Positions 6,291 to 63,910 of a stretch of 64,000 nt of DNA are shown in pieces (the stretch's first letter is position 1; each line of letters starts with the position of its first letter). This DNA is from Mobula hypostoma (taxonomy: Eukaryota), in assembly GCF_963921235.1 (NCBI RefSeq), contig NC_086108.1, forward strand, positions 53,136,001 through 53,200,000, in the 5' to 3' direction. A program made the position numbers and the translations under genes. The notes under the pieces were generated by a model. That model was not told where the DNA came from. It worked only from the letters and a program-made list of their open reading frames with translations, and did no database searches.

Positions 6291-6394
6291 GGCCTACATT
6301 TTGTTCCCCCAGCAGGAATCAGTTTATAAATCCAGGCTCTTCCACGATAAGCAATAAGCATTGAAAGTGAGCACTTCACAGACCATTATAAAAA

Positions 6395-6542
6395 GTGACA
6401 CACACAAAATGCTGGAGGAACTCAGCAGGTCAGGCAGCATCTATGGAAAAGAGTAAACAATTGACGTCTTGGGCTGAGACCCTTCGTCAGGTTTTCTTAT
6501 GTTTGTGGAATTCCAGCATATGCAGCTTTTCTCATGTTTGTG
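6395..6542. mobile_element. Short Penelope-tail derivative with internal inversion and 10-bp TSD
   Basis: Minus-oriented tail with a degenerate hammerhead (6458-6491) joined to a plus-oriented terminal piece; ATTATAAAAA at 6385-6394 and 6543-6552. Confidence 0.75.
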
Positions 6543-8741: not shown

Positions 8742-9230
8742 CTGCTGTCCATGGCCTCCTCTACTTGCAGGCTGGAGAAGCAACACCTCATACTCTGTCT
8801 AGGTAACCTCTAGCCAGATGGCATGAACATCAATTACTCGCACTTTGAGTAATTTCTCTCCCCTCCCTCTTCCCTCTTCCTTTAATTTCCCACTCTGTCC
8901 TCTTGCCTCTTCTCCTCACCTGCCTATCACCTCCCCTGATGCCCCTCCTCTTTCCTCTCTTATCAGTTTCTTTTTTCTCCAGCTCTTTGTCTTTTCCACC
9001 TATCACCTCCTGGCTTCTTACTTCATCCACCCTCCCCCACCCACCTGCCTTCCCCTATCACTTTCTAGCTTATTCCCAGATTCTCATTCTGACATCTTCC
9101 CCCTTTCTTTCCGGTCCTGATGAAGGGTCTCAGCCTATTTCCATAATTGCTGCCTGACCTGCTGAGTTCCTCCAGCATTTTTTGTCTGTTGCTCTGGATT
9201 TCCAGCATCTGCTGAATCTCTTGTGTTTAT
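8742..9230 (+). mobile_element. Penelope-like element 3' fragment
   Basis: ORF end (LEKQHLIL...DGMNI), pyrimidine-rich UTR, CTGATGAAGGGTCTCAGCC at 9117, tail GCTGCCTGACCTGCTGAGTTCCTCCAGCATTTT. Confidence 0.75.
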
Positions 9231-12829: not shown

Positions 12830-13295
12830 GTCCAGGTAGCTAACCTGATGGCATGAACATTGATTTCTCTGACTTCCTTTAATTTCCCCCCTTCCCCTTT
12901 TCCTCTTCTTCTATTCCCCATTCTGGCCCCTTCTTGCTTCTTCTCTTCTCTCATCTCCCTATCACCGCCCCCCTAGTGCCCCTTCTCTTTCCTTTTCACA
13001 CATGGTCGGTTCTCCTCTCCTATCAGTTTCCTTCTTCTCCAACCTTTTCCACCTGTCTCTTCCCAGCTTCTCACTTCACCGGTCCCCCTCCCCTCACCCA
13101 CCTGGCTTCACTTCTAATTTATCACCTTCTAACAAGTACTCCTTCCCCTCTCCCTACCTCCTTCTTCTGGCCCTATCCCCCTTCTTTTTCAGTTCTGATG
13201 AAGAGCTACGGCAAAAAACGTCGACTGTTCATTCATTTCCATAGATGTGCTTGACCTGCTGAGGTCCTCCAGAACTTTGTGTGTGTTGCTCTCAA
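12830..13295 (+). mobile_element. Penelope-like element 3' fragment with degenerate hammerhead
   Basis: CCTGATGGCATGAACATTGATTTC ORF end, CT-rich UTR, CAGTT-CTGATGA...AAACGTC-GACTG at 13190-13227, shared tail. Confidence 0.75.
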
Positions 13296-14224
13296 TTTTT
13301 CCACACATGGAGAGTCCAATGAATTATGTTTTGTCCTTAGGTCCATTCTGACGAGGCGAGAGTTGGCAAGTAGTCCTCAAGCAAACCATGACTGAGGACC
13401 AAGCTCCAGAACACTCTGGGAAGTTGCTGTTGTCAAAAACCATTGAACAGTTCTTCAAATATTTGTGATATTCATCATTATCTAAAGGTTATCCAGAACA
13501 ATTTAATTGTATTTTAAATAAAAAAGCATTTAAAAATGTATAAAAAACCCAAAAAGCGCAGTAAAGCATTAACATTTAAAACTTTCAATGAAGTAAAACA
13601 CATTTTCCACAGGATCAGTGGCGACATGGAAATGAACTGAGTTCCCATGCATATGCTTTCCAGTTTCACACAAAGTTTGTGGTGAAGTTGCAGCTGTTAA
13701 ATACAGTAAGTCTGCGTTTCCTCTCTTCAGCAAGTCAGAACTCCTGCTACTTGACTCAGTAGTGATTCCACTGGTGGAGCAGAGGTCAGATGCTCCTGCG
13801 TTTTGGCTTCAGGGCATTATGGATTTCTGAGCTTACCCTGTACAGTGAATAGCTGATAGCAGCACATTCCTTGTGCAATCACCACTGCAGGTACAATCCA
13901 TCACAATGATTTACATTCTTAATTCAAAATTATAAACTCTCAATTTGTGGGCACCAGCAAATTAGGATGAACAATCAACTCAAAGAAGACATAAACAAAT
14001 CTGAAGTTCAGGTAGATAATGAATTTCAACATATGAGGAAAATTACGATAAGGAAAATAAATGTTCTTTGTTAGAAAATCTGTGTCTTAATGGTGTAGGG
14101 GATACAAGAATCGAGTAGCTCACATACAAAAAAAATCAATGAAGTTCGCAAAGCAGTACTTAATGTAAAATTTAGCAATTTCAGATAACCTGCCTTTCCA
14201 GTCTATGTCATTCACTTTGTTTAG

Positions 14225-18294: not shown

Positions 18295-18937
18295 AGAGGT
18301 TGAAAGGAGAAATAATTAAAGATCATTTGCTTGACTTTCCTTCCAGGAGAGTGAATAAAGACAATGATTAATTTTGTCCTCTTACACAAGATTTAGCTCC
18401 CTTGGAATGAAAATCATCTATTGATCTTGCGCAGGACAGTGACCATGCTTCAGCAAGAGAAGTGGCTGTATAAATAGGTGAACCATTTAATGATGTCAGT
18501 TCACAACTTTAATAAAACTCCAGATAATAGTAGGTCAGGACATTGGAAAAGTAAGTAGCAACAAGGCATTACTACTTTAATATTTGCTCAAGGATTTTGG
18601 ATCACTGAAACAAAGCCAAGACAAAGCAGAATACTACAGGTCCAGAAATCTGCAGAAATGCTGGAAATACTCAGCAAGTCAGGCATCTTCTTTGGAGAGA
18701 GAAAGAGAATTAATATTTCAAACAAAAAGCCCTTTATCACATCAGCTTTCCAAGCTACTCTTGAGAGCAAATTGGAACATGATTTCTTTAATACTGTTGG
18801 GATTTGTGTGTACATCCCACAGTGTTTCCTAAAAATTATCCAAATCCAACTAAATTAAATCATTGAGGAGATCTTAACTACATCCACCCTACAAAATATA
18901 TGGTGGAATACCTTAAATTGGAGCATTCATCATTTTT

Positions 18938-19010
18938 TGGCCTGCTGCATTCCACCAGCATTTTGTGTGCGTTGCTTGAATTTCCAGCATCTGCAGATTT
19001 TCTCGTGCTT
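18938..19010 (+). mobile_element. 73-bp Penelope-tail insert with 15-bp TSD
   Basis: GCATTCATCATTTTT at 18923-18937 and 19011-19025 flanks the tail sequence. Confidence 0.85.
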
Positions 19011-20959: not shown

Positions 20960-22214
20960 ACTTCCTGATACCTATCTTGCAAGCGGAACAAGTCCCTGCC
21001 CTTACACCTCCTCCCTCACTACCATTCAGGGCCCTGAATAGCCCTTCCAGGTGAGGTACACTGCACCTATGAGTCTGCTGGGGTCACCTACTGCGCCCAT
21101 AGCACCGAGACCACTCCTGGTATGGTCTCCTGTATATCGGTGAGACCCGAAGGAGATTGGGAGACCACTTTGCCAAGCACTTACACTAAGTCCATCAGAA
21201 AAAGCAGGATTTCCCAGTGGCCACCCATATAACCATAGAACAATTACAGCACGGAAACAGGCCATGTCGGCCCTTCTAGTCTGTGCCAAACTCCTACTCT
21301 CACCTAGTCCCACCAACCTGCACTCAGCCCATAACCCTCCATTCCTTTCCTGTCCATATATCTATCCAATTTAACTTTAAACGACAACATCGAACCTGCC
21401 TCAACCACTTCTACTGGAAGCTCGTTCCACACAGCCACAACTCTCTGAGTAAAGAAGTTCCCCCTCATGTTACCCCTAAACTTTTGCCCTCTAACTCTCT
21501 ACTCATGTCCTCTTGTTTGAATCTCCCCCACTCTCAATGGAAAAAGCCTATCCACGTCAACACTATCAATCCCCTTCATAATTGTAAACACCTCTATCAA
21601 GTCCCCTCTCAACCTTCTACGCTCCAAAGAATAAAGACCTAACTTGTTCAACCTCTACACTCCAAAGAATAAAGACCTAACTTGTTCATTTTAATTCTAC
21701 TTCCCATTCCCATTCCAACATGTCAGTCCATGGCCTCCTCTACTGCCGCAATGAGAGCACACTTTGGTTGGAGGAGCAACACCTTATATTCCATCTGGTT
21801 AGCCTCCAACCTGATGGCGTGAACATCAATTCCTCAAACTTCTGGTAATGCTCCCCACCTTCACCATTCCCATTCTCGTTTCCCTCTCTCACCTTATCTC
21901 CGTATCTACCCATCACCTCCTTCCCTTTCTTCCATGGCCTTCTGTCCTCTCCTATCAGATTCCCCCTTCTCCAGTCCTTTCTCTCTTTCACCAATCAACT
22001 TCCTAGCTCTTTACTTTACCCCTTTCCCCTCACACGATTTCACCTATCACCTACCACCTTGTACTTCTTCCTCACCTCCCCCCATCTTCTTACTCCGACT
22101 TCTTTTTCTTTCCAGTCCTGATTAAGCGTCGCCACCCAAAATGTTGACTGTTTACTCTTTTCCACAGAAGCTGCTTGGCCTATTGATTTCTTCCAGTAAT
22201 TCGTGCGTGTTGCT
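20960..22214 (+). mobile_element. 5'-truncated Penelope-like element (GIY-YIG endonuclease region and tail) with 12-bp TSD, interrupted by a CR1 fragment
   Basis: From 21124 reads GLLYIGETRRRLGDHFAKHL (GIY-YIG second motif), then FPVATH|FNSTSHSH...LEEQHLIFHL..LQPDG across the insert; TTACATCTTCAT at 20948-20959 and 22215-22226. Confidence 0.88.
21228..21688 (-). mobile_element. CR1 3' fragment nested in the Penelope element
   Basis: Reverse complement of the same CR1 tail seen at 63520-63580; it splits the Penelope codons ATH|FNS. Confidence 0.88.
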
Positions 22215-24684: not shown

Positions 24685-25003
24685 AATGCCCTCACCCTTT
24701 CCTCCCTCCACCCCACCAGGGATGGGTTCCTCTTGTCCTCACCTACCAACCCGTCAGCCTCCGCATCCAGCACATAATTCTCCATAACTTCTGCCATCTC
24801 CAACGGGATCCCACCACCAAGCACATATTTCCCTTCCCCCCACTTTCTGCTTTCTGCAGGGATCGATCCCTATGTGACTCCCTTGTCCATTTGTCCTTCC
24901 TGGTACTTATCCTTGCAAGCAGACTACTTGCTACACCTACCCCTACACCTCCTCCCTCACTACCATTCAGGACCACAAACAGCCCTTTCAGGTGAGGCAA
25001 CTT
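24685..25003 (+). mobile_element. Penelope-like internal fragment (RT-endonuclease linker)
   Basis: Reads VPLVLTYQPVSLRIQHIILHNFCHLQRDPTTKHIFP; its end overlaps in sequence with the 20960-21060 Penelope piece. Confidence 0.75.
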
Positions 25004-25432
25004 GAACTTTAAGTGTGGCAATCATGCAAATGTATGTACCCTTATCATCCTGGAGACCAACATTGCTGTTCCAAGAGGGTACCTCCAAACCGGTGAAGAC
25101 ACCTGAGGCACGAATCAGCCAATCAATTTACAAACGTCTCAGCCCGAAACAGCGACTGTACTTTTTTCCATAGATGCTGCCTGGCCTTCTGAATTCCACC
25201 AGCACTTTGTGTGTGCATTGCTCAGCCAATAAATTGTTCAATTTCACGCTGTTGTCATTTTGAAGTCCTTGTTGGATTCTGTGGATGTCTTAAGAAGCAA
25301 GTTGTTGACTTAGGGCAGGCAGCTAGCGTATCTGCTTTGAGGTACAACTGGCTGGCAAGATACAGAGGAATGACAAAAAAATGGCAATAACAGTAGGAAA
25401 AGTAAATTGGAGTATAGATATAAAAATTTAAG
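25004..25432 (+). repeat. Copy 1 of a roughly 320-bp duplicated segment (copy 2 at 29973-30292), carrying a 98-bp insert
   Basis: Aligned by eye from GAACTTTAAGTGTGGCAATCATGCAA to GGAGTATA.ATATAAAAA; insert at 25124-25221. Confidence 0.9.
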
Positions 25433-29702: not shown

Positions 29703-29809
29703 ATAAACAAGAGATTCTGCAGGTGCTGAAAATGCAGAGCAACATACACAAAATACTGGAGGGACTCATTAGGTCAGGAGTATCAATAGAAAGGAATAAA
29801 CAGTTACGG
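29703..29809 (-). mobile_element. Short Penelope-tail insert with 11-bp TSD
   Basis: TACATCATCCC at 29692-29702 and 29810-29820. Confidence 0.8.
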
Positions 29810-29972: not shown

Positions 29973-30292
29973 GAACTTTAAGTGTGGCAATCATGCAAGT
30001 GTATGTATCATTGTCATCTTGGAGACCAACAATGGTGTTATAAGAGAGTGTCTCCAAGCCTGTGAAGGCTCTTGAAGCACAACTCAACCAATAAGTTATT
30101 CAATTTCACACTGTTGTCATTTTGAAGTCCCTATTGGATTCCATGGATCTCATAAGAAACAAGCTGTTGACTTAGGGCAGCCAGCTAGCGTATCTGTTTT
30201 GAGGTACAACTGCCTGGCAAGATGCAGAGTAACGACAAAAATGGCAATGACTGTAGGAAAAGTCAAATGGAGTATACATATAAAAAATTAAG
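29973..30292 (+). repeat. Copy 2 of the duplicated segment (empty-site version)
   Basis: Matches 25004-25432 without the insert; single TCAACCAAT at 30084-30092. Confidence 0.9.
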
Positions 30293-38830: not shown

Positions 38831-40298
38831 CTTTAGAAAAGGATTGCAGGATTTAGACTCTGCAACAACGAAGAAATTGTGATATACTTTAAATTCAGCA
38901 TAGAGATACTGCATGCAGTAGTGTTCTTGTGCATCTGAAGCCCTTGTCTTTTCTGGAAGATAGAGGTGGTAGGTTTAGAAGGCACTTTCAGAGTACATTG
39001 GTTTTTACAGCTAATATGCACTTCAGCTAGAGGAGGAGGGAATGAGTGTTTAGGGTAGAGGATAGGATACATGGTACTGAGATGGAGCTGCAGAAAATTA
39101 AAGTGTATTCCATTACATTCCTTACTTGTGCTTTGTAGGTGATCAAAAGGTTTTGGAATGTCAGGAGGTGAGCCACTCGTCACAAGATATCCAATTTCTG
39201 ATCTGCTCTTGTATGACAGTATTTATGTGACTGGTCCAGTTGAGTTTCTAGACAGCGCTGACACAGAATATTGATGGTGTATGACTCACTTGTGATAGTG
39301 TTATTGACTGTCAGGGTTAGTTGGTTAAACTCTGACTTGTTTGATATGATTATTGGCAGGCACTTTTGGTGGCATCTCTGCTTCTTGCCTCTTATCAACT
39401 CATATCTCAGTCTTGTCTTCCTGCATGGAAGTGGGCTGCTTCGTTTGCTGAGAAGTTACAAATTGTATTGAACCTGGTGCAATTATCAGTGAACATCCCA
39501 ATTACTGATGTCTGATAGAGGAAAGGGCAACTTGACACCACCAACTGTCAAGTGCTCAACATTGTACGTTATCATTATTTTTATAACAGTAGCATTGTAT
39601 CAGATTACGGGTTTCTTTCAGTCATCTAAATCTCAGAACCACAGCCCATTTCTCTTTACTCAATCTTTTATACAACAAATTCCAATAGACTACTACCTCT
39701 AATGATCTTTTGAACAAAGTTCTAGAATCAGGATAGAATGAATAAAGACGAAAACTACCTTATAAAAACCAATAAGGTCTGTAAGCAATACTTAAATGAA
39801 GTATTGTGCTGAAAAGTTGCTGGTAACATAAATATTGCCTTTAGTTTGTGTTTATATGGAACAGAAAGCGGTCTGCATCCTACCATTAATCCCCAGTATC
39901 AGAGGATTTTGCAGAGCATAAGACCATAGAAGATTAATTTTATGGCTTATCTGATTATGGGGGAAATGTTTATGGAAAAGAAATACTTTTAATTTCAGCT
40001 AATAACATTATAATAACGAAACTCATTAACTTGAATTCCGCTTACTAATTTGACGTAATCAAACGCCTAAAGGAACTGCATAATGTTACAAACCAAACTT
40101 GTACATAAGGAGGTATTGGGAAAAGTAACCAAAATTGAGGCAAAGATGAACAATTTAAGGAACACATTAGAAGTTGAGTGTCCCAGATAGAGAATCTAAC
40201 GTGGATCGTATGTTTAAGGTTGTGGCAGCTGAAGACCACGGGTGGAGGAATGAAAATCAAAGAACTGTAATAGCCCAGAATGAAGGGAAGGAGAACCT

Positions 40299-40433
40299 CA
40301 ACACAAGAGATTTTGCAGATGCTGGAGCTCTTGAACACACACAAAATGCTGGAATAACTCAGGATGTTAGGCAGTATCTATGGAGGGAAATAAATAGTCA
40401 ACACTTTGGGCTGAGATGCTTCATCAGGACTGG
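40299..40433 (-). mobile_element. Penelope tail with degenerate hammerhead
   Basis: Minus strand CAGTC-CTGATGA-AGCATCTCAGCCC-AAAGTGTT-GACTA at 40395-40432. Confidence 0.75.
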
Positions 40434-41236
40434 TTATTTCATTCAATTATTTTTTCTCCTTTACACTTGTGTAATGGAAATAACATCAAACAATCCTGAA
40501 TCTTCAATCATGAAAGGAGAAACTCAAAGGGTTAGAGAGCTGCAGAAGATTAGAGATGAGGAGGGACAAGGCTATGGAGAGATTTTAAATCAAGGGTGAG
40601 AAATTCAAAATGGAAGCTTGCTTTTAACTAGGAGTCAATGTTCAAGATAATGATTGAGCAGAACTTAATATGAGTGAGGGTCCAAGCAGCAAATCTTTGG
40701 AATTGTATACTTACTATGGAGAGAGGGTATAAGTGTGGATGCTAACCAGGAGAGCATTGGACAAGTCAATCCCAGAGTTAAAGAAGGTAATGCACAACAT
40801 TTCCACAAAGATGTCCATCCATTTCCCCCCACCCCCCCATTACCTAAGATCATTACCCTCCCCTAGCTGGTTCCCTCTGCCCAACATTACTCCCTTATTT
40901 TGTTCCACCTTTCGCTTATCAGTCTCTTTCTCAGCAGTCCCCCTTCCCCTTCCCTCACCTGTCCATTAACCACCCCTGCAATCTCGTTCCACTTATCATC
41001 TACTAGCCTCAGTCTCATCCCACTCCCTCAATTCCATATACTGGCTATCAACTCTCAAAAACCCCTGTGTCCCCATTCCTCCACAAATGCTGTTTGACTC
41101 ACGTAGTTCTTCCAACAGTTTTTGTTTTGCTCCAGATTCCAGATTCATCTGTCCCTTTCCTTAAAGGACCACATTCAGCTGAATGCATTCTCTGAAAATT
41201 ACTTGAGGGCACCAATCAGAGAAGAGCTTGAAAAAC

Positions 41237-41338
41237 TGCTGGAGGAACTCAGCAGGTCAGGCAGCACTTGTTGAGGGTTTATTTCTTCTCTTCATTCCTT
41301 TCCAAAGATGCTGCCCGACCTGCTGAGTTCCTCCAGCA
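41237..41338. repeat. 30-bp inverted repeat (29/30) made of two Penelope tails, 42-nt spacer
   Basis: TGCTGGAGGAACTCAGCAGGTCAGGCAGCA at 41237-41266; its reverse complement at 41309-41338. Confidence 0.92.
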
Positions 41339-44300
41339 TTTTGAGTGAGCTGAGGGTATCCTGTGTCTCTAGAGAAAAATTTACTTTAGTGAAGAAAATG
41401 TCAGAGAGAAGTATGTTTTTACTGAAAATTGAATTGTTCTCATTTCCTTTATAACACTGGTGAACTCACAGCCAGTCTGATGATCTTAAAAACAACAACT
41501 GCTTACCCCTTGCTCAGCCCTTTAAGCGGTTTAGTTCCTGTGTCCATGGATGTCAGGGTATTCCCTCATTCCGGCATAAAATGAGGCTGACAAGAGGTGG
41601 CTACATAATCTCCTCCAGGTATGAGAATCCCCACACAACGCATAATGCACAAATAAGTTTCATGTCCTCACAAAATACGTAAGGATAAACAGCAACTCAC
41701 TGTAGCAATCCATTTCAATTATTGGATCACTGATTTTTTTTTACGTTTTATAATCATTGGAGATGAAGCTGAAAAGCAGCAAGTGAGGAACCACTATGTC
41801 ATCTGAGCTCCCTTACCTGATTATTACTGTGTGATATTGTTGTTAACCACTGGAGTGTCGTGAGGGTCACTTGACTTTATTTGAAGATTATCATTTTCTG
41901 GACTTATTGTCCCTCTGTCAAATCCTTTATATCCATGCCATCACCTCCTGGTTCTCCTGCTCATCTGCACGATGAGCGAGTGGATGCAGAGTGGGTTAAA
42001 CCCGAGCTAGACTTCTTCCTCCTACTCCTATTGCTCCTGTTACCTTCAGGATACCTTGTGGCTCTTGCGTTCTGGGTCTCTTTGCCACTCACCCTCTGGC
42101 ATCAGTTTGTTACACTGTGCAGTGCACAGCACAAAATAATAAAGTCATCACATTTGCTCCAGGCAACAGAAGCTCGTCTTTACCACTCCTTTGGCACTTT
42201 CCACCGTTATTCTTCCTACCTGATGACTCTCCCAGTCACTGCATTCAGTTGTTTTAGTTGGAGGGCACATTGGTGTAATGAGCCTTATAGACTTTGTCCC
42301 CCAGGATTTATGCCAACTACTGAGGATGTCTGGCACTGTGCATGTATTGAATATTGGGATTTATTTTTACATTGATCCACAGTATTCTGCACAGTGAGGG
42401 AGCAGAAACCTTTCCTATTCATAGACATATCAGGATACTAAAGGGATCCCTTAGAGCATACGAATGCGGTTAATGGCTATTTACATTCATGGAAAGCCAC
42501 ATCTTAGTTTCCAAGATGCCACTTCATCCTAGCTGAAATCCAAGTAGATGAAATCATTTATGAATGCAGGAGTCTGGATCTTCTCTCTGATTCTGACATG
42601 GCAGCAATCTGTTGCTACCATTTTTGAGGGCTCCTGTAGGGAGGGAGTTCAGGGTCAATAAGATCTTGACCTCTACGCAGCTTGTAGACCATATATGGGA
42701 GCACTGTCAAATGTCCTCATGGTTGAACGGCCAACTCAAGGTGACATGTACCTCAGTAATGACAGCCTGGAAAACTTGAGCATGTTAATACAGTATTCTT
42801 CAGGAGGATGTGGTAATTATGCAAACTAAATGTGGGGAGGCTGTTCATTAAAGAGTCAACCATTGCCTTGTGATCCAAATTGCCTGACCCATCCTAAGTA
42901 GGTAGCGATAGCCATTTAATAATGGAGCTCTATAGTAGTGACATTCCTGAATTCCCATTGCATGAATGTGTTGACAACCAAATGTGGGAAAAAATACTGC
43001 TTGTTAGTTGCAGTACACTCTATAAAGCTGCCCAGTGAGGTCTCCTAGTGTCAGCAGACTGTCTCTCTAAAAGCCAGAAATGCAACAAACTAGTGTATAT
43101 GCTCTTTGTTATAATAACTTTTTCAGCCTCGGACATGGGTTGCATTTTAGTTTATGTCTAGAAAGGCAGAAAAGGGCATTATACCAAGGGTATATCATTA
43201 AGTGTGAGTCTGGTGCCTGAAAGAAGGTCAGAGGATGACAAACATTCCCATTTCATCCCAAAATGGTCACTTTCAGACTACATTCTGTTTGAAATATATT
43301 TTCATGTCTTTAGCTCCTAAAAAATGGATGCAAATTGATCCAGTTTGTGGTTTAGGAATCCAAAAGTTGCTGCAATGATAACATGCTCTTTCATGGACTG
43401 CTCTGTTGTAGTCTTTATGAAAGCAATCAACATGAATCCGTAATTTGATGTGAATTTCATTTTTTATCACTGCCCTTATAGTAAATTCACTGAAAATATT
43501 AAGACATTAACATGAAAACATTAAACGTGGTTAACATGAGATTTTGATGGTGTGCTGGACATAATTGCTACATAATAGCATCTCTAGCCCTAAAATTAGA
43601 ATTTCTTTCCATAGCATGTTTAAAAAATTAAATTAGTATTGTAAACTCCTGGTTTGCTTTCTGTGAGAATTTTTTCAATCTGTTTAGCTAATGAGTCTCT
43701 TGACAACACTGATAGTGGTTATATCAGATTTCCAATAGAATGCAACTCATATTGATAATTTGGAGTCCTTGCCACATAGCCTGTTTAACCATGTGATCAG
43801 TTTTCTTTAAGATCAGTTAAACACAGCAGTCTTTTATTACCGACCACCAAACCTCAGACATCGTGTTCCGTGATAATGTTAGTTATATTGGTCTCCTAGA
43901 TAGGCAAGCAGGAAGAACCACTGTAAAATAATCCAACGTGCCTTGTATTGAAGAGCAGTCACTTTTTAATATGGGTAAGCACGGTAATCGGCACCTATTA
44001 AAAGCGAAGGATAAATAGCATAATAATTCGCTTAGGTGGGAATAGAAGGGGTCTGGGTAGGCAGGATCCCTCATGATGCGCTCCCGTCTGCTTCCCAGTA
44101 GCATAGCATTGACCATCAGGGAGTTATTGAGATGACCCGCTTTGAGGGAGCCATTGCATCACCGTGATCTTCGTAAAAGTCCCAAAGAACCTCTTAAGAT
44201 CCGAATAAATTACGAAAAGAGGTAAATCGTGTAACCACGCATCCAGTAGCCTCAGCATCTCGCTGAAATATCGAAGTGCTTTATGACTCCAGAGGCGGAA

Positions 44301-44650
44301 GTAATCTGAACTAAATACGTATATCTTCCATTAAAGCATTCAACTCATCACTTAAGGAGTGCGTTTATCATCCTTACTTCACGTGGATAATCTTCTATAT
44401 GTTGACAATATAATACAATATTTGTTTTTATTACTTCAAGGTTCATGCCGGGTCAAGGCTCAACGCAGAACACCAGTAGTTCCAATACACAAGCGAACAC
44501 GGAATTGAAAAGAATTCAGAAGTGGCTTGTAACGACAAGCTTGAGACATAAATGTCTACATCTAAAGTGGCGGAAAAATTATAAAAGGTAAGAAGTTGCA
44601 CCTCTCTTAACTGTTATTTAACTGTTCCAGAAAAATGGTTGAAATTGAAT

Positions 44651-44732
44651 ATGCTGTAGGAACTCAGCAGGCCAGGCAGCTTCCATAGAAAAAAAGTGCA
44701 GTCGACGTTTCGGGCCGAAACCCTTTGGAAGG
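44651..44732 (-). mobile_element. Penelope tail with intact hammerhead 3' half
   Basis: Minus strand ...AGGGT-TTCG-GCCC-GAAACGTC-GACTG; the 5' core reads CTTCCAA instead of CTGATGA. Confidence 0.75.
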
Positions 44733-44836
44733 CCTCTTTAATGTATATTCGTTTAAACAGAAAACAGAAGGCACCTGTTGAATGCTTTATGCAATACGGT
44801 TGAACAAATATGGTACAGGTGGTTGTTCTTTGAACG

Positions 44837-45053
44837 AAACACAAAGATTCTGCTGATGCTCGAAACGTAGAGCAACATATAAAAAGTGCTGGAGGAACTC
44901 AGCAAGTCAGGCAGCACCTATGGACGGAAAAAAACCGTCGACATTTCGGGCCAGTCCTGATAGAGGGTCTTGGCCCGAAACGTCGACTGTTTATTCCCCT
45001 CCGTATAAGCTACCTGACTTGATGAATCCCTCCAGCACTTTATGTGTGTTATC
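44837..45053. mobile_element. Fold-back Penelope-tail element with arms of about 80 bp
   Basis: 44873-44953 is the reverse complement of 44971-45050 with scattered mismatches; flanks CTTTGAACG (44828-44836) and CTTTGAGCG (45054-45062). Confidence 0.85.
44952..44989 (+). ncRNA. Minimal type-I hammerhead ribozyme motif (best copy in the window; core variant)
   Basis: Stem I CAGUC/GACUG; core CUGAUAG (canonical CUGAUGA); stem II GGGUC-UU-GGCCC; GAAA; palindromic ACGU in place of helix III; GUC cleavage triplet ending at 44984. Confidence 0.7.
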
Positions 45054-48000
45054 CTTTGAGCGGATTTTTTTTCGAATATAGCGAAATGTCTCCTGTAACG
45101 TATTTGACCATAAAAAGTGATGGCGACAATTTCAAACAGATAAATCCTTAAGAACGTAGAAAACTTGCGATCTTAAAATTGTAGATTTCAACGTGGAATT
45201 CCCAAATAAGGCCACATATATTAAAAGAGCTGATCGGAAAGCTGTCCATTTTGTGTTATTAAAAGGTTAAAACTTTCACTGTCAGTGGGGTGAGCAGATC
45301 AAGCCACCCAACCATTCTGCGCAGACCTCTGCGTTACTTCGGTCGAGAGCGGCGCAGCGGTAAGCAGTGAAAGTGCTCGTCACTTCCAATTTTCATAAGT
45401 AATTACAACCTGATATTGCCCTAAGAAGGCAAGTTCTATATTCTGTTGTCCCCGGGACAAAGGACCAAAGTGATCGCTTTTGATTTCTTCGGGGATTCCA
45501 AAATACAGTACAGTAATCCGGAAGTCGGAAAACTCAGAAGTTTCTGTTAGTTTTGGTTTGCGTGTCTTTCCTTCTGGAATTTAATCATTATGCAATATAA
45601 TAGCAATGCAATTTAAGGAGAAGACACGTCGATCTGTTTGTGAACGAGATGTTATATCCACACGGTTTATGTCTCGTACACATTCATACAAATTTGTTTT
45701 CAGCAACGTGCGTTTGAACTTGAGGCATAATTACTTCCTCCGACCTGTCTCAAAACTTTACTTTTAAGATATAAATCTACCTTATTCCCCTCAGATGAAA
45801 ATCGCAATCCATTTTTCTCTATAGATGCTGCCCGACCTGCCAAATATTTCCGTTATTTTCCGTTTTTATTTCAGATTTCCAACATGTTAAACCAAAAAAA
45901 AGAATTGTTGCATTTTGAAATCTAGTTGTTCTGTTTTCGCTGGAGCATTTTAAGTTGGAATAAAACAGTAAACCGATCACGCATGAAAATCTGACAGACA
46001 CATCATACTACAAAAACTTCAGGTAATTGTGTATTTAATAATCAATGGGCAATGAGATGACATTTTAAAATAATTGTAAATAATCCAAGCTGGAGTTATT
46101 TTTTTCAAAGAGAGCTTCGTGGAGCAAATAATTTGAACAACACGTGAATTTGAACTCAAACACAACAGAGTAAAACTAAGATGTAATATAAAGCACAACT
46201 CCTGTAAGAGAATAGCTGTTTAAAAAAAAACTAACTGTCTCCGAAGCCCAAACTGTACCATGCTACCCTATTTTTCTGGGCTGGCATCCGTCTGTCCAAA
46301 TTACAGACTCGGGTTAATTCTGCTTAAGTCAGTTCTCAGTCGGTGACCCGTTCCTGGAATCTTGTCACCTTCACGAATCTCTCTTCAGGACCTTATTGAC
46401 TCCTCTGGAGCTCATTCGGAGGCAACTGAGAAACAAACGGAAAAATGATGACACGTTAGGAATACGCGTGAAACTATCGCACAATTTAAAAAAGGAGGCC
46501 ATAAGGTTTAGATTGATTATAATATGCATTGCTATTTAAAATTATTTATGACTTCATTTTATGGACGCAGGTAATGCTGAGAGAAGACGCTGGAACCATA
46601 TTTCAATATTGCTAAAATGGCACGCGTAGCCGTATTAATACACAAATCTATACAATTGGATGAAATTGCGAGTAACTGGAGGAATGGCATTTAAATTATT
46701 GGTGGGGGGGGGGAAGAAGATTTTTGCCTGGTCGATCTTTCCCCCTCTTAATTGTAAGTGGAACGCTGTTAGGTACACTCGGAGCCGTGCCTGGATATTA
46801 AAATCTGCCTTGACGCTTTGTGAGCGAACCTTGAGAACACACTGACAGTACCATTGAATATCTCTTTTGTTCCGACCACTTCTCCCTGGATTTGAAAGCA
46901 GGGCTGCACGCATCGTATTTGCAAAAAAATATCAATAGATAAAAATGAGCAACTTCATGTTGTTTGACAGAGAGTTACACGTTGATGGAGTAGGTTCCTA
47001 AAGGGGGTGATAATGGCGAATCCAGCCCTTTTAGGAGCTAGAGCCGCAGGCTGCACGTGATTTGACCGTACAAAACCAAATTAAACATTTCTTTCAATAA
47101 AAAGTCATTTTTTATGTCTTTAAACAATAAACCCGCATGATGTAGAATCTCACATCGCGAGATAAAAGAAGTGTCTGCAGAACGATACATTTTGATTAAA
47201 CCTGACATGCTGATAACTTCATGCTAATGTAAAATAATTAACATAATAACTATAATTAAGAGTGCGCCAACAATGCCATTAATTCATCACGAATTTTATT
47301 CGCATTCTAAATGCTGTCCAAATGCTGTATCCGATTTCTTTGAACCTTTAATTAAACGAGTTGCCTTTTTATTAAGCACTGTTTGATTTGTATAAATTGG
47401 AGTTATCCCACTTTTTACTATCCATTATCACCGAAGTTTGTATCCCTCCCCCTAAGTGTCTCAACTGGTTAAGTTACATCATATAAATACATGAAAGATT
47501 CTGTTTCACTATTTCTCTATATTATTGTAGTTAATTAGAGATTAGGATAAATTTAAAGATTTTTTTTTAAATTGCCGAAGGAGTTAACCGGTTAATGAGG
47601 AGGTTGCATGAAATATCACCGTCGCGTTATTTGGATCCAAACGTTGTGAAAATTACAGCATAAACATCTACTGTTAACCAGAAATTGATTATTTCAAAAC
47701 AGAAAATATTTATTTTAAAAAATTCAATCAGTCGTCGCGGAGATGTTCTCTTTCCCCCTCTCCTAATAGCGCAGAGAAGTACCGGTGAAAGTGTTCTAAA
47801 CGGCGTGGGGATTATTTTAATACAGACACTCAGACACGGTACACGGTGGGTAAAAAGGTTTGGTGCTGTTACTGATTTCAGTTAGACGGCTAGAAAATGT
47901 ATTGATTTTACTGGATGCGCAAGCTTTGGAATGAGTATATGCCACAGGTAAGAATCTGCTGTTTGTCAGATATTTTCTGTGGTTGATGGTATTACCGTTA

Positions 48001-51845: not shown

Positions 51846-52058
51846 CATAAAAGCTAAAGAGCTGCGTACCTGAAAACGCTTTAAAAATATTGCGAGAAAT
51901 TATAGGAAAAGTTGCAATGTGCAAGTTGAAATAGGCTGTCAAAAAGTTAAAGGTAATTGTTATTGACAGCCCCTTGACCTGCATTAAAAAAGCGTTGTCA
52001 TCTGATCTGCAAGGGACTGCCAGCTGAGACAGTGTGTATGTGAGAGAGTCGAGAGACT

Positions 52059-52061
<3 letters not shown>

Positions 52062-52097
<36 letters not shown>

Positions 52098-52098
52098 G
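52062..52098 (+). repeat. (GA)n microsatellite in the FOXD3 5' region
   Basis: Visible GA run interrupted once by GG. Confidence 0.95.
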
Positions 52099-52172
52099 GG
52101 GGAAAAGAAGTTTCTGCAGAAAAGAAGCCAAGCTCTTACCTTTTTTTTGGTGATTTGCGAAAGGGAAGCGTG

Positions 52173-53306
52173 ATGACCCTGTCAGGCAGCGGCAGCGCGA
52201 GCGACATGTCAGGGCACACAGTCCTCACAGCAGAGGATGTCGATATTGATGTGGTAGGAGAAGGAGACGAGGGCATGGGAAAGGACAGCGACTCTGAGAG
52301 CCACGCCACCCACGATCAGGGAGAAGAGGTGGAGGAGATCGGGGCAAGGGAAATTGCGGAAAGTCCTACCGCTATCTGCCAGCCTTCCTCGGAGGGAGAA
52401 ATCGCCAAATCGGAAACTCAGGAAAGTGGCTCCTCGAACGGCAACAACGTTTCCAAACCCAAGAACAGTTTGGTGAAGCCACCTTACTCGTACATTGCTC
52501 TCATCACCATGTCTATCTTGCAAAGTCCCCAGAAAAAGTTAACCCTTAGTGGGATCTGTGAGTTCATCAGCAACCGTTTCCCTTATTACAGGGAGAAATT
52601 TCCAGCCTGGCAGAACTCTATCAGGCACAACTTGTCCCTGAATGACTGCTTTGTGAAGATTCCCAGGGAGCCTGGTAATCCGGGTAAAGGGAACTACTGG
52701 ACGCTGGATCCACAGTCTGAAGATATGTTTGACAATGGGAGCTTTCTCCGTCGGCGGAAAAGGTTCAAGAGGCAGCCGACAGACCATCTGAGAGAGCAGA
52801 CTGCCCTCATGATGCAGAGTTTTGGAGCTTATAGCCTGAGCGGTCCTTACGGGCGTCCCTATGCGCTGCCTCCTGCCTCTTACTCTCATCCCGCCGCTCT
52901 TCAATATTCCTACATTCCCCCCGTGGGTCCTATGCTACCCCCAGTCGTCCCACTCATCCCATCCAGTGAACTCAACAGGAAAGCCTTTAATTCCCAGCTC
53001 AGTCCCAATCTTCAGCTCCAACTCAGCAGCCTGAGCTCCACATCCATCGTCAAATCGGAGCCCACCAGCAGACCTTCTTTCAGCATCGAGAATATTATCG
53101 GAGTGACAAGCACGTCAGGCAGCTCACAAACTTTCATGCGGCCGCCAATAACCGCTCAGTCGGCTTTGGTCAGTCCTCAGCCCTTGTCCTTAGTGAGAAC
53201 CACGGCTGCAATCACCCCAATCCTCAGTGTCCCCACGAACATAATTTCCGGACAATTCTTACAATCAGCAGCTTCGGCCGCCGGAGTGACCAAATGGCCA
53301 TCTTAA
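52173..53306 (+). CDS. FOXD3: Forkhead box protein D3, single coding exon, 377 aa
   Basis: N-terminus [32 protein letters not shown] is characteristic of FoxD3; forkhead domain [12 protein letters not shown]...[13 protein letters not shown]...[20 protein letters not shown] from 52476; eh1 Groucho-binding motif FSIENIIG at 53079-53102; ALG6 lies downstream. The ORF-track start at 52155 is a TTG; the first ATG is 52173. Confidence 0.98.
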
Positions 53307-58992: not shown

Positions 58993-60343
58993 GTCTGTAT
59001 TGCTGTTGTTCAGCCCTCAAGATGGTAAAACGTACCCTCCCCTCAAGCCAGACTCTTGTGGTGCTTGTGCACAGAGTGGAAAGGTCAACAGTTGCCTCTA
59101 CCATTCACCTGAATTGTTGTCGTTTCGGCTCGAGAGCCTTTATCAAATCTTGAACATCCTTCTGCATCCACATGTGTTTCTTGGCCCGCTGAATTCTTCC
59201 AGTTGATTTTCGCTCCAGATTACTACATCTGCAATCTCTCATTTTTTGAATGATATTTTGCTCATTAATGATTAAAGTCTATACAACTGTGATATAGTTT
59301 AAAAGTTCAGCTGAAATCACTTGCATGTGTGACATAGTCCTGCGAATATGAATGCATGAATTTTGTGCAACTTTCTCAATACTTCTTAAAATGTTTCATA
59401 AATAGTTTTCAAAGCATGAAGTCGCTGTCAAGCTCGCCTTTTATTTGGTTTCTGATTCTCCTGCTGCTGAGGCTGCCTTGATATGATCCCCAACCCACCC
59501 TCAAAGCTTTGTCTATTGACAATATCTTTTCATTTGTCCCACAATTCCTGGTTGTGGCTCCAACTGCAGTTTTATTGTCCTTTGAATTCCATGCCAGTGA
59601 GTCTATTTCACATCTTGTGCATTTTTTCTTTTTCCTTTTTAATTGTTTTATGAATGATTTTTTTGCGTAGCTGATTAGTCTTCAATAAGAAATTTCTGCT
59701 TTAAATTGACCATTTCTATTTTTATGCTATTTTAATTTTATTATTATCACAATATTGTTGCTGCAACAGAGCTTTCTTACCACTGCCACCTTTCTTACTC
59801 ATTTTACATGGTCCATAGTTTGAAAATTCATCACTAGTAGTTTATTGCTTCCTTAATAGTTTGGGTTGTTGCCATTTGAGAATCTAGACAACATTCTTAG
59901 TCACTTTTTAAAACTGTTCTGTCAAGTTATAATCAGGGTTTGAGCCCACATTTCCTCACATTAAAATGCTTGTTGATTATTGGTCTTGAAAAAGCATGTT
60001 GTCATCAACAACTTTGTACAAAAGGCATTTTGAGGAGATAGGAGAATGTATCTTACTAAAGAACCTAGTCTTCTCACTTTATAGAATACTGTGTAGTCTG
60101 TTCTATGGTCTGTATCAAGAGTCAAGAAGCTTGGATAGTACTTTCTCACTACTGAAATGATACTCCTCACTAGCTGTACTGCTGCAGCAGGCAGGCAGTC
60201 AATTAACCTCAGAATGGGATTCTTTTTCTACTTTTTTTCCACTCTGCACATAGAGGCAATGCAGTTGCTCTCAGAAGCGTAACTTTCACTAAGAATGCTC
60301 TTTGATGTTATCTCTACAGCTGCTTTTTTTTCTGTGTTATCAG

Positions 60344-60674: not shown

Positions 60675-63577
60675 TGGAAAATTTCTTAAATGCATTTATT
60701 TTAATGCTGGGAGCATTATAAGAAAGGTGGATGAGCTTAAAGCATGGATTGATACCTGGAAGTATGATGTGGTAACTATTTGTGAAACATGGTTACAGGA
60801 GGGGTGTGATTGACAATTAAATATTCCTGGATTTAATTGCTTCAGGTGTGATAGAATCGGAGGGACAAGAAGGGGAGGTGTTGCATTGCTTGTCAGAGAA
60901 AATATTACAGCGGTGCTCTGGCAGGATAGATTAGAGGGCTTGCCTAGGGAGGCTATTTGGGTGGAATTGAGGAATGGGAAAGGTGTAGTAACACTTATGG
61001 GGGTGTATTATAGACCACCAAATGGGGAGCGAGAATTGGAGGAGCAAATTTGTAAGGAGATAGCAGATATTTGTTGTAAGCACAAGGTTGTGATTGTGAG
61101 AGATTTTAATTTTCCACACATAGTCTGGGAAGCCCATACTGTAAAAGGGCTGGATGGTTTGGAGTTTGTAAAATGTGTGCAGGATAGTTTTTTGCAGCAA
61201 TACATAGAGGTACCAACGAGAGAAGGGGCAGTGTTGGATCTCCTGTTAGGGAATGAGATAGATCTGGTGACGGAGGTTTGTGTTGGGGAGCACTTCAGGT
61301 CCAGTGATCACAATGCTATTAGTTTCAATATAATTATGGAGAAGGATAGGTCTGGACCCAAGGTTGAGATTTTTGATTGGAGAAAGGCTAACCTTGAGGA
61401 GATGCGAAAGGATTTAGAAGGAGTAGATTGGGACAATTTGTTTTATGGGAAGAATGTAATAGAGAAATGGAGGTCATTTAAAGGTGAAATTTTGAGGGGG
61501 AAGATACAGAATCTTTATGTTCCTGTTCCTATTAGGTTGAAAGGAAAGGTTAAAAGTTTGAGAGAGCCATGGTTTTCAAGGGATATTGGAAATTTGGCTC
61601 GGAAAAAGAGAGAGATCTACAATAAATATAGGCAGCATGGAGTATATGAGGTGCTCGAGGAATATAAAGAATGTAAAAAGAATCTTAAGAAAGAAATTAG
61701 AAAAGCTAAAAGAAGATATGAGGTTGCTTTGGCAAGTAAGGTGAAAATAAATCCCAAGGGTTTCTACAGTTATATTAATAGCAAAAGGATAGAGAGGGAT
61801 AAAATTGGTCCCTTAGAGAATCAGAGTGGACAGCTATGTGTGGAGCCAAAAGAGATGGGGTAGATTCTGAACAATTTCTTTTCTTCGGTATTCACTAAGG
61901 AGAAGGATGTTGAATTGTGTAAGATAAGAGAAACAGGTAGGGAAGTTATGGAAGCTATGATGATTAAAGAAGAGGGAGTACTGGCGCTTTTAAGGAATAT
62001 AAAAGTGGATAAGTCTCTGGGTCCTGACAGGATATTCCCCAGGACCTTGAGGGTAGTTAGTGTGGAAATAGCAGGGGTTTTGACAGAAACATTTCAAATG
62101 TCATTAGAAACGGGAATGGTGCCGGAGGATTGGCGTATTGCTCATGTTGTTCCATTGTTTAAAAAGGGTTCTAAGAGTAAACCTAACAATTATCGGCCTA
62201 TGAGTTTGACGTCAGTGGTGGGTAAATTGATGGAAAGTATTCTTAGAGATGGTATATATAATTATCTGGATAGACGGGGTCTGATTAGGAACAGTCAACA
62301 TGGATTTGTGCGTGTAGGTCATGTTTGACAAATCTTATTGAATTTTTTGAAGAGGTTACTAGGAAAGTTGATGAGGGTAAAGTGATGGATGTTGTCAATA
62401 TGGACTTCGGTAAGGCCCTTGACAAGGTTCCACACAGAAGGTTAGTTAGGAAGGTTCAATTGTTAGGTATTAATATTGAAGTAGTAAAATGGATTCAGCA
62501 GTGGCTGGATGGGAGACGCCAGAGAGTGGTGGTGGATAACTGTTTGTCAGCGTGGAAGGCGGTGACTAGTGGTGTGCCTCAGCGATCTGTACTGTGTCCA
62601 ATGTTGTTTGTCATATACATTAATGATCTGGATGATGGGGTGGTAAATTGGATGAGTAAATATGCAGATGATACTAAGATAGGTGGAGTTGTGGATAATG
62701 AAGTAGGTTTTCAAAGCTTGCAGTGAGATTTAGGCCAGTTGGAAGAGTGGGCTGAAGGATGGCAGAGGGAGTTTAATGCTGATAAATGTGAGGTGCTACA
62801 TTTTGGTAGGATTAATCAAAATAGGCAATACATGATAAATGGTAGGGCACTGAAGATTGCAGTAGAAAAGAGGGATCTAGGAATAATGGTGCATAGTTCC
62901 CTGAAGGTGAAAGTTCATGTGGATAGGGTGGTGAAGAAAGCTTTTGGTATGCTGGCCTTTATAAATCAAAGCATTGAGTATAGGAGTTGGGATATAATGT
63001 TGAAATTGTACAAGGCATTGGTGAGGCCAAATTTGGAGTATTGTGTACAGCTTTGGTGACCGAATTATAGGAAAGATGTCAGCAAAATAGAGTACAGAGA
63101 AGATTTACTAGAATGTTACCTGGGTTTCATCACCTAAGTTACAGAGAAAGGTTGAACAAGTTGGGTCTTTATTCTTTGGAACATAGAAGGTTGAGGGGGT
63201 TATTGATAGAGGTATTTAAAATTATGAGGGGGATAGATAGAGTTGACGTTGATAGGCTTTTTCCATTGAGAGTGGGGGAGATTCAAACATGAGGACATGA
63301 GTTGAGAGTTAAAGGGCAAAAGTTTTGGGGCAACATGAGGGGGAACTTCTTTACTCAGAGAGTGGTAGCTGTATGGAACGAGCTTCCAGCAGAAGTGGTT
63401 GAGGCAGGTTCCATGTTGTCATTTAAAGTTAAATTAGACAGCTATATGGACAGGAAAGGAATGGAGGGTTATGGGCTGAGTGCAGGTCGGTGGGACTAGG
63501 TGAGAGTAAGAGTTCGGCATGAACTAGAAGGGCCGAGATGACCTGTTTCTGTGCTGTAATTATTATATGGTTATATG
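60675..63577 (+). mobile_element. CR1-clade LINE covering nearly all of ORF2 (APE endonuclease and RT), disabled, in ALG6 intron 2
   Basis: LKCIYFNAGSI...ETW, GGVA, GVYYRPP, DFNFP, LDLLL and SDH (APE motifs); RT motifs including YADD; stops at about 60811, 61861, 62724 and 63057 plus frameshifts; tail (TTATATGG)2; GTAAGAGG direct repeats at both ends. Confidence 0.95.
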
Positions 63578-63910
63578 GTAAGAGGCTATTCAACCATTTC
63601 AGAAACATTAGGATCATAATCTCATTTAGCATCTTTCTAGAAAGAGGCATTAGATACTGATCATACATGCAATGTCCAACTCTCTGCCTCTTTACTCAAC
63701 TGCGTGTGCCCTGCTGAGAATAGCTGACTCATCTCAAACCTTTTCCTGAATCTGAGAGAGTCATGATTCTTTATCATGCAGCACAATTACCTCTGGGAGG
63801 GCATTGCTAAAAACAGCATCGTTTAATAAATAAACTTCTTATGAAATGTGCATTATAAACAACCCAAGATCCAGCAATCTCTGAATGTATTGTTAATTTA
63901 TTTCCCTCAG

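What the first reader, a model, noticed from the sequence alone, without database searches (positions are those of the whole stretch)
44952..44989. Penelope-family tail encodes a minimal, probably dimer-dependent hammerhead ribozyme, seen in at least 8 places
Seen: copies at 6458-6491(-), 9113-9135, 13190-13227, 22113-22150, about 25136-25158, 40395-40432(-), 44699-44732(-) and 44952-44989 give the consensus CAGUC CUGAUGA A GGGUCUCGGCCC GAAAC GUC GACUG. That is stem I, the hammerhead core with one extra A, stem II, and only palindromic ACGU for helix III. It lies downstream of a GIY-YIG ORF (20960-22214). Established: Penelope-like elements carry minimal type-I hammerheads proposed to cleave as dimers. 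Inference: this is a high-copy ribozyme-bearing family in this genome. No single copy here is perfect, so these copies may be inactive.
Basis: partly seen in the sequence, partly recalled or inferred. Interest (0 to 1): 0.8.

Follow-up and report, generated by a model that had tools for sequence, protein, structure and literature searches.

The report
Dead Penelope hammerhead stubs in ray
These repeats are broken end pieces of a Penelope-type jumping gene in a ray-like fish: the family's majority sequence has the shape of a tiny self-cutting RNA already known from such elements, which likely cuts only in pairs or with the element's protein, while every copy in this stretch is mutated and likely inactive, so the finding is real but ordinary.

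Summary
Real but ordinary. All 8 listed copies exist, plus a ninth at 44935-44953(-). The tail family gives 21 window hits against 0 in 10 shuffles. The titled copy has lost G8 and A9, which 88% and 97% of genome-wide contig depth restores, and it sits in a fold-back predicted to bury the motif. The 'GIY-YIG ORF' is a broken relic split by a LINE fragment. Its relatives are RT plus GIY-YIG Penelope-like proteins, nearest from rays. Target-site duplications, an optional ~36-nt tail and an inverted stub match known PLE insertions. Stems covary across 48 outside sequences, not within this family. This is the minimal hammerhead of Cervera and De la Pena 2014. Dimer dependence is inferred; protein assistance is a published alternative. 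Copies run 60-100 nt past the cut site, so uncut RNA was likely the template. The scan found this before on other DNA (76 notes, at least 22 genomes).

The parts
44952..44989 (+). Titled minimal-hammerhead relic: stem I 44952-56/44985-89, core 44957-63, extra A 44964, stem II 44965-68/44973-76, G12 44977, ACGU 44980-83, predicted cut after 44984. G8 and A9 are lost (44962-63).
   Evidence: best hit of outside-built model R1, 25.1 bits, E 1e-4; family majority restores both positions
44951..45053 (+). Whole + stub: motif plus ~65-nt downstream end, without the optional tail
44837..44953 (-). Inverted, more truncated stub: starts in the 3' arm of stem II, carries the ~36-nt optional tail, overlaps the + stub by 2-3 bases
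   Evidence: the pair folds as one hairpin, -108.4 kcal/mol, z -11.25; flanking duplication weak, within the null range
44649..44732 (-). Separate stub; 3' half of the motif intact, G5, A6, G8 and the 5' arm of stem I lost
20960..22214 (+). 5'-truncated PLE relic: linker end, broken GIY-YIG coding (to ~21848), UTR, decayed motif at 22113-22150; 12/12 target-site duplication at 20948-59 and 22215-26
21225..21654 (-). LINE 3' end inserted into the GIY-YIG relic (75% to the end of the RT ORF at 703-2109; 91% to 63149-63578). The name CR1 is recalled, not from a call.
8763..9230 (+). Endonuclease end, UTR, 5' half of the motif (3' half deleted), downstream end with tail
12840..13300 (+). Endonuclease end, UTR and decayed motif at 13190-13227 (G12 lost, stem II 2 of 4 pairs)
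6392..6491 (-). Stub starting at the last base of stem I's 5' arm; G12 and A14 lost
40297..40433 (-). Stub starting at the 5' edge of stem I, with tail; G12 and A15.1 lost
25129..25221 (+). Stub starting in stem II, inserted in another repeat; 13/14 duplication at 25115-28 and 25222-35; the empty site is seen in the sister repeat at 29973-30292
29703..29809 (-). Stub starting a few bases before the cut site, with tail; 11/11 duplication
18938..19010 (+). Short stub without the motif, with tail; 15/15 duplication
41232..41349 (.). Second head-to-head inverted pair of stubs, lacking the motif
24711..25000 (+). Isolated relic of the RT-endonuclease linker of the same family, not joined to the 25136 stub

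Best explanation
These are 5'-truncated, decayed end pieces of a very abundant endonuclease-bearing Penelope-like retroelement (likely Neptune type) in a ray-like genome; the family majority has the layout of a minimal type-I hammerhead that likely cuts only in the parent RNA, as a pair or with the element's protein, and every copy in this window has lost core bases and is likely inactive. Steps: (1) Shown: the motif lies ~265 nt after the GIY-YIG coding end and 60-100 nt before the element's 3' end. (2) Inferred: the RT-endonuclease protein nicks AT-rich DNA with an 11-15-nt stagger and copies RNA from one of two start points ~36 nt apart, which gives the optional tail. (3) Inferred: most copying stops early, and priming on both strands joins two stubs head to head, as at 44837-45053. 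(4) Inferred from the sequence: the template was uncut or re-joined RNA, because copies run through the cut site. (5) Shown: after insertion the motif decays like neutral DNA, fastest at four CpGs that include G12, the ACGU palindrome and the cut site. (6) Inferred from the literature: in the parent transcript two ACGU palindromes would form helix III between two motifs, or the protein would chaperone folding; cleavage would trim or circularise the RNA and need not be required for insertion.
For: Nearest proteins to the relic are from Mobula and Hypanus, 71-77% identity; they carry the RT YIDD motif (2 of 3), a CX4CxxC linker (3 of 3) and GIY-YIG (2 of 3, below Pfam's cut-off); longer relatives carry RVT_1 plus GIY-YIG. 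Target duplications of 11-15 nt in 4 of 11 elements tested, scores 10.5-15 against a null maximum of 6.5. Tail in 5 of 14 copies, one being the query. Inverted stub and tail are described PLE traits (PMC8557442, passages); two RT start sites and uncut template in PMC11167929 (parts 1-2 of 4). Genome-wide contigs restore G8 (83,880 of 95,671 depth) and A9 (92,594 of 95,921) in run X1, and 88%/97% in X5. 3,535-6,604 contigs lie on the 52-bp motif in each of 4 organisms. In 48 outside sequences chosen by core pattern, 79.6% of stem cells pair against 54.6% shuffled, 0 of 500 shuffles, and every slid register is lower; position 17 is C or U in 57 of 63 de-duplicated rows. 22 of 121 outside loci hit P0001; in 18 of 22 the motif is downstream on the same strand. 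CpG columns mutated 18 of 65 against 27 of 220, p=0.006; core 9 of 74 against non-core 18 of 146 outside CpGs.
Against: No cleavage was or could be tested. No compensatory change within this family: of 10 altered stem cells, 7 break the pair and 3 keep it by a one-sided change. G12 is tied in the window, and loose-end consensuses from 2,230 (X1) and 2,535 (X5) contigs show the G12-to-A form, though that subset is enriched for mismatches to the reference. No intact element or pLTR-ORF-pLTR unit is in the window and no genome is held, so two motifs on one transcript were not seen for this family. The outside search pattern was designed from this consensus, so core agreement is by construction. 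Neptune placement rests on the linker motif, which Nematis shares; no tree was built.
Confidence: 0.88

Rival explanations
1. The motif is kept for a role other than cutting, as promoter or protein-binding structure at the start of the element's RNA; cleavage is vestigial in this family.
For: PLE hammerheads cleave weakly in vitro (PMC4209133). In the anole element, core mutants insert normally and no RNA ends were found at the cut site (PMC11167929). Penelope has an internal promoter with a downstream element containing ACGT (PMC2377424, passages). The naked majority monomer is predicted to prefer a core-burying fold (-12.7 against -10.5 kcal/mol; hammerhead fold 2%).
Against: Stems I and II covary and position 17 avoids G across outside families, as a cleaving hammerhead requires (established knowledge). 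The anole motif does cleave, with C3/G8 rescue, when protein is added.
Confidence: 0.2
2. The short stubs are a separate non-autonomous family (SINE- or retrozyme-like) that uses the ribozyme to release and spread its own RNA.
For: 6 of 9 motif-bearing copies lack the UTR; several have their own duplications. A 2026 preprint derives animal retrozymes from PLE pLTRs and reports them in its one chondrichthyan genome (10.64898/2026.07.22.740005, part 1 and passages).
Against: No tandem array of the motif among 12 TRF rows. The 5' ends are scattered from stem I to past the cut site, none exactly at the cut. Stubs share the 3' ends and tail of the endonuclease-linked copies. 0 of 9 cores are intact.
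Confidence: 0.08
3. The titled copy is itself a working variant ribozyme with one base inserted between positions 7 and 8 and the extra A lost.
For: It keeps 5 of 5 stem I and 4 of 4 stem II pairs, G12-A15.1, ACGU and C17; its isolated MFE is the hammerhead fold. The change can be read as a one-base shift.
Against: Family contigs show G8/A9 at 88-97%, so this is a private change. On the + strand the upstream inverted stub is predicted to pair with its 3' half. No partner motif with an intact 5' core lies on the same strand nearby.
Confidence: 0.03
4. The hammerhead likeness is chance in an ordinary repeat tail.
For: No Rfam hammerhead match; no covariation within the family.
Against: The same core with covarying stems occurs downstream of related endonucleases in unrelated loci, and a model built only from those ranks 44950-44991 and 13188-13229 first and second in the window.
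Confidence: 0.02

Closest known systems
Minimal hammerheads (min-HHR) in pLTRs of metazoan PLEs, Cervera and De la Pena 2014 (PMC4209133; read parts 1-2 of 4; supplement file 2 searched, file 1 not available)
   Same: Type I, helix I of 5 bp, unpaired base between 9 and 10.1, G10.1-C11.1, palindromic 15.2-16.2 with no loop 3, thousands of mostly single dispersed copies, some as close pairs on opposite strands; reported in Xena, Poseidon and Neptune elements of fishes.
   Different: Host is a ray-like fish; cartilaginous fishes were not named in the parts read, and the terms searched were absent from supplement file 2. Helix II is 4 bp, against 7-8 bp in the Schistosoma families.
Poseidon element of the green anole, PAc (PMC11167929; read parts 1-2 of 4)
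   Same: Hammerhead near the pLTR end, copies extending beyond the cut site, optional tail between two RT start points, AT-rich targets.
   Different: PAc is Penelope/Poseidon clade with its ORF starting inside stem II; this family has a CX4CxxC linker (Neptune/Nematis type). Where its ORF starts was not determined.
Small PLE hammerheads that cleave as dimers, Lunse, Weinberg and Breaker 2016/17 (PMC5785218; not held; seen only as a title and as summarised in PMC6765202)
   Same: Very short palindromic stem III, dimer model.
   Different: Could not check whether a ray or shark variant, or a variant with ACGU only, was assayed.
Neptune/Nematis endonuclease-positive PLEs (PMC8557442, passages)
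   Same: RT followed by CX2-5CxxC linker and C-terminal GIY-YIG; 5' truncation, adjacent inverted copy, 30-40-bp tail.
   Different: No full-length or tandem unit seen here; 11-15-nt duplications are clear in 4 of 11 cases; clade not tested by tree.
Non-LTR retrozymes (10.64898/2026.07.22.740005; part 1 of 5 and passages)
   Same: Type I hammerhead, PLE origin, no protein.
   Different: Retrozymes are tandem arrays with at least two complete motifs; these are dispersed single or inverted stubs with broken cores.

Membership tests
Minimal type-I hammerhead of PLEs (family majority) | Core CUGANGA, GAAA, UH | tested here: met
   Window majority has all positions but G12 is tied 4:4; G8 88% and A9 97% of contig depth; no row for G12 is shown among the 40 listed rows, 15 rows hidden
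Minimal type-I hammerhead of PLEs (each window copy) | Core CUGANGA, GAAA, UH intact in the copy | tested here: not met
   0 of 9 copies; descriptor finds 0 core matches
Minimal type-I hammerhead of PLEs (family majority) | Helix I of 4-5 bp, helix II closed by G10.1-C11.1, one unpaired base after A9 | tested here: met
   Extra A in 7 of 7, G10.1 in 7 of 7, C11.1 in 7 of 8; stems 5 and 4 bp
Minimal type-I hammerhead of PLEs (family majority) | Palindromic 15.2-16.2 without helix III loop | tested here: met
   C in 5 of 8 and G in 7 of 8; departures are CpG-type
Minimal type-I hammerhead of PLEs | Stem covariation within this family | tested here: not met
   0 compensatory changes among 10 altered stem cells in 9 copies; small sample of dead copies
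Minimal type-I hammerhead of PLEs | Stem covariation across families with the same core | tested here: met
   130 cells changed on both sides against 54.1 shuffled, 0 of 500; 48 of 124 matches used; dropped: 61 near-duplicates, 5 from GC-rich loci, 10 more by hand, mostly poorly paired rows, which favours the result; the unpruned 63-row tally also exceeds its shuffles at 4 of 8 pairs
Minimal type-I hammerhead of PLEs | Self-cleavage as dimer or with protein | not testable with these tools
   Needs in vitro assay
Endonuclease-positive PLE | RT followed by C-terminal GIY-YIG in one ORF | tested here: met
   Met in relatives; the window holds only broken linker and endonuclease relics
Endonuclease-positive PLE | Optional 30-40-bp tail and adjacent inverted 5'-truncated copy | tested here: met
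   Tail in 5 of 14 copies; inverted pairs at 44837-45053 and 41232-41349
Endonuclease-positive PLE | Partial tandem pLTR-ORF-pLTR unit | tested here: inconclusive
   None in the window; no genome held
Neptune clade | CX2-5CxxC linker between RT and endonuclease | tested here: met
   Present in P0001-P0003, 3 of 3; decayed in the window relic at 24899-25000; shared with Nematis
Neptune clade | Placement by RT phylogeny | not tested
   No named reference elements were fetched
Non-LTR retrozyme | Tandem units with at least two complete hammerheads | tested here: not met
   No such array among 12 TRF rows; window only
Rfam hammerhead families | Match to a curated covariance model | tested here: not met
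   None among 5 matches at E<=1

The most novel reading that the evidence does not exclude
The 5' arm of stem I doubles as the element's transcription start, so the ribozyme is the first 34 nucleotides of the capped RNA and works as a switch: uncut capped RNA is translated and copied into the genome, leaving stubs that begin at the motif's edge with a cap-derived G, while cutting would uncap or circularise it. Hint from my calls: contigs that leave the family just before 44953 have unrelated flanks (agreement 0.33-0.35, 160-204 contigs per run) whose consensus ends in ATTG in 4 of 4 organisms, and 44951-57 fits a pyrimidine-A-N-W-pyrimidine initiator (motif recalled). Against: the 2 window stubs that start at stem I begin two bases earlier with no extra G, the initiator match partly overlaps the fixed core, and outside families show no clear initiator peak (12 of 96 at -3, inflated by the pattern). 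The idea came from earlier scan notes.
Probability: 0.3. Interest if true: 0.5.

Novelty: new member of a known kind. Interest (0 to 1): 0.2.

Why it matters
It adds rays to the hosts of a motif class known since 2014; I found no paper naming it in rays or sharks (searches; the one hit for 'shark' was seen as a listing only, and supplements I could not see may list one). The copies here look dead and evolve neutrally, so nothing points to a host function. The modest value is as material for an open question, what PLE hammerheads do: a family this abundant records thousands of insertion ends, enough to test whether uncut, capped RNA is the template. CpGs at G12, the palindrome and the cut site also explain why descriptor and Rfam searches undercount the motif in methylated genomes.

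Tried and rejected
Whole-genome consensus: no genome is held; contigs of public runs were used instead. Rfam: no hammerhead. Pfam on the stop-free relic pieces: 0 families for 4 of 4 relic pieces; identity came from homologues. RNA evidence: no RNA holder listed; two runs guessed as RNA hold family contigs, but contigs show no strand, ends or level, and one is probably DNA, so no claim on expression or on RNA ends at 44984. One search gave no table of other letters on the 52-bp stretch, so no per-position comparison between organisms. Summed depth over the motif is ~28,000 times the flanks in X1, but the tool says this is no copy number; I use it only as 'very many'. One search used a structure string with stem I off by one column (37.9% paired); one search is the corrected count. 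One search had the 9113 copy off by one and took A at G12, giving a non-significant CpG test (p=0.35); one search corrects the register and resolves two tied columns to G, and the p=0.006 depends on that choice. Target duplications: 7 of 11 elements, the titled one included, gave scores within the null range. An A-to-G editing scar in the fold-back (lead from note e1-9141068) was looked for by eye in the table and not seen. Initiator enrichment in outside families: not supported. Lunse et al. not held. A look-up of earlier notes by this sequence found nothing.

Full report
Observation. All 8 listed places hold family sequence. An HMM from six tails finds 21 hits in the window and none in 10 shuffles; they cover 1,481 bases. 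Nine copies hold part of the 38-nt motif, the ninth being 44935-44953(-). Rfam shows no hammerhead at E<=1.

The 'ORF'. 20960-22214 is not among the open frames. Translation shows linker, GIY-YIG and C-terminal pieces in different frames with stops. A 430-bp inverted LINE end sits inside it at 21225-21654. A 12/12 duplication flanks the relic, so it is one 5'-truncated insertion. Its last coding piece finds 4 proteins among 5 candidates; three are named, from Mobula hypostoma and Hypanus sabinus, at 71-77% identity. These have a CX4CxxC linker (3 of 3) and the RT YIDD motif (2 of 3); 2 of 3 hit GIY-YIG below the curated cut-off. Longer relatives carry RVT_1 and GIY-YIG. By PMC8557442 (passages) this is an endonuclease-positive PLE of Neptune or Nematis type. 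The host is inferred to be a ray; the runs name it only as organism A.

Anatomy of the stubs. The order is endonuclease end, ~265 nt of pyrimidine-rich UTR, motif, ~65 nt, then an optional ~36-nt tail. Three copies reach the UTR. The tail is present in 5 of 14 copies tested, one being the query; scores 21-36 against a null 99th percentile of 11. Duplications of 11-15 nt flank 4 of 11 elements tested, against a null maximum score of 6.5; the other 7, the titled one included, are within the null range. For the 25136 stub a sister repeat shows the empty site. The titled copy is half of a head-to-head pair: a tail-bearing stub on the minus strand (44837-44953) overlaps it by 2-3 bases. Such inverted truncated copies and one-ended tails are standard PLE traits, and PMC11167929 ties the tail to two RT start sites and priming on both strands. 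Transcribed whole, the pair is predicted to fold as a hairpin of -108.4 kcal/mol (z -11.25) that pairs the motif's 3' half with the inverted copy. Contigs of organism B run from each unique flank into the neighbouring stub with 2-3 differences (records 25 and 32), so these insertions likely predate that split.

Family majority beyond the window. No genome is held. Laid at 80% likeness on 44500-45300, 33,876 contigs of run X1 and 37,505 of X5 align. At the titled copy's two core changes the contigs read G8 in 88% and A9 in 97% of depth in both runs. C-to-T is seen at the palindrome (19% in X1) and at position 17 (12%). No row for G12 is shown, but 15 rows are hidden and alignment favours contigs like the reference. 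Loose-end consensuses from contigs that stop matching there show the G12-to-A form in X1, X5 and X22 and intact G12 in X21. So G12 is the likely ancestral base but is often lost. On the 52-bp motif alone, 3,535-6,604 contigs align in each of four organisms.

Decay. With the two ties resolved to G, four CpGs fall in loop II, at 11.1/G12, in ACGU and at the cut site. They are mutated in 18 of 65 cells, 16 as transitions, against 27 of 220 elsewhere (p=0.006; without that resolution p=0.35). Outside CpGs the core (9 of 74) and non-core (18 of 146) rates are equal, so there is no sign of selection after insertion. No stem change is compensatory.

Is the layout a real hammerhead? A core-plus-stem-base pattern gave 121 metagenome loci from a partial scan, 124 usable matches. 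Stem I of 4 or more pairs occurs in 61 of 124 against a swapped mean of 6, maximum 15. After de-duplication to 63 rows, the two inner stem I pairs and the two free stem II pairs exceed all 2,000 shuffles; the four outer stem I pairs do not. Position 17, not set by the pattern, is C or U in 57 of 63. On 48 aligned rows (I dropped 5 from GC-rich loci and 10 more by hand, mostly poorly paired, which favours the result) 79.6% of cells pair, 0 of 500 shuffles, and slid registers score lower. 22 of 121 loci hit P0001, and in 18 of 22 the motif lies downstream on the same strand. A model from these rows ranks 44950-44991 first (E 1e-4) and 13188-13229 second, and finds 5 of the 8 listed copies at E<=0.15, with two unrelated places in that range. 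The core match is by construction; the stems and the linkage are not.

Mechanism. Shown: position, structure, decay. Inferred: target-primed copying from two start points, early stops, head-to-head joining. Because copies continue 60-100 nt past position 17, the template was uncut or re-joined RNA. With only ACGU between A15.1 and U16.1, a monomer cannot close helix III (established hammerhead anatomy), and the naked majority monomer is predicted to prefer a core-burying fold. PMC4209133 found no monomer cleavage and low dimer cleavage for a Schistosoma motif. PMC11167929 found protein-assisted cleavage, dispensable for insertion in vitro, and no RNA ends at the cut site. I put dimer-with-helper cleavage in the parent RNA first; a non-cutting role has about 0.2.

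Comparison and novelty. The features match the min-HHR definition point by point, reported from fish Neptune, Poseidon and Xena elements, coelacanth, frog and reptiles. It works like, and its majority sequence files as, a PLE minimal hammerhead; the individual window copies fail membership. It is not a retrozyme array. I found no paper on this motif in rays, but a 2026 preprint reports retrozymes in one chondrichthyan, Lunse et al. was not available, and one supplement file of PMC4209133 and all preprint supplements were unseen. Earlier notes of this scan describe the same thing in at least 22 genomes; they are leads, not support.

Boldest reading left open. Prompted by those notes, I checked whether stem I marks the transcription start. 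One search gives a hint (unrelated flanks ending in ATTG before 44953 in 4 of 4 runs); the two window stubs that start there show no extra G, and outside families give no clear support. Probability 0.3.

Verdict: observation partly confirmed, interpretation partly supported, new member of a known kind, interest 0.2.

Noticed in passing
window 52044-53306 (+): Intact single-frame forkhead gene; best solved match is Genesis (E 1e-66), which I recall as FoxD3. The titled locus lies ~7 kb upstream.
   Followed up: partly
window 9868-9941, 15140-15178, 15470-15543, 18655-18739(-), 19856-19899(-), possibly 45808-45857: A second, more decayed subfamily of the same kind of tail with a different downstream signature and a different stem II remnant.
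   Followed up: partly
window 703-2109 (+) and 60814-63579 (+): Two LINE copies (74% alike); the first has a 468-aa open RT frame (RVT_1, E 6e-38), the second is broken. The 3' end of the second is 91% like the fragment inside the GIY-YIG relic.
   Followed up: partly
window 41232-41349: Head-to-head stub pair forming a long hairpin that draws spurious Rfam miRNA and plastid matches below their gathering scores; such pairs could be miscalled as microRNAs.
   Followed up: partly
window 25004-25432 and 29973-30292: Two copies of another repeat, one holding a stub insertion and one empty, giving a clean filled/empty comparison.
   Followed up: yes
window 59112-59153 (-): Weak match to model R1 (14.8 bits, E 0.11) with stem II but no stem I, next to a tail hit on the + strand at 59165-59203; may be a very old inverted pair.
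   Followed up: no
L007:1061-1087 (-) and L008:1-1527 (+), one contig: An outside PLE with at least 456 open codons (RT, linker, GIY-YIG), an intact motif 138 nt downstream and an inverted intact motif upstream; a cleaner substrate for assays than the window copies.
   Followed up: partly
window 17055-17632: Degenerate 64-, 30- and 20-bp tandem repeats in a GC-rich patch of unknown origin.
   Followed up: no
window 45300-45400: Short CpG-rich stretch just right of the titled locus, possibly regulatory DNA of the forkhead gene region.
   Followed up: no
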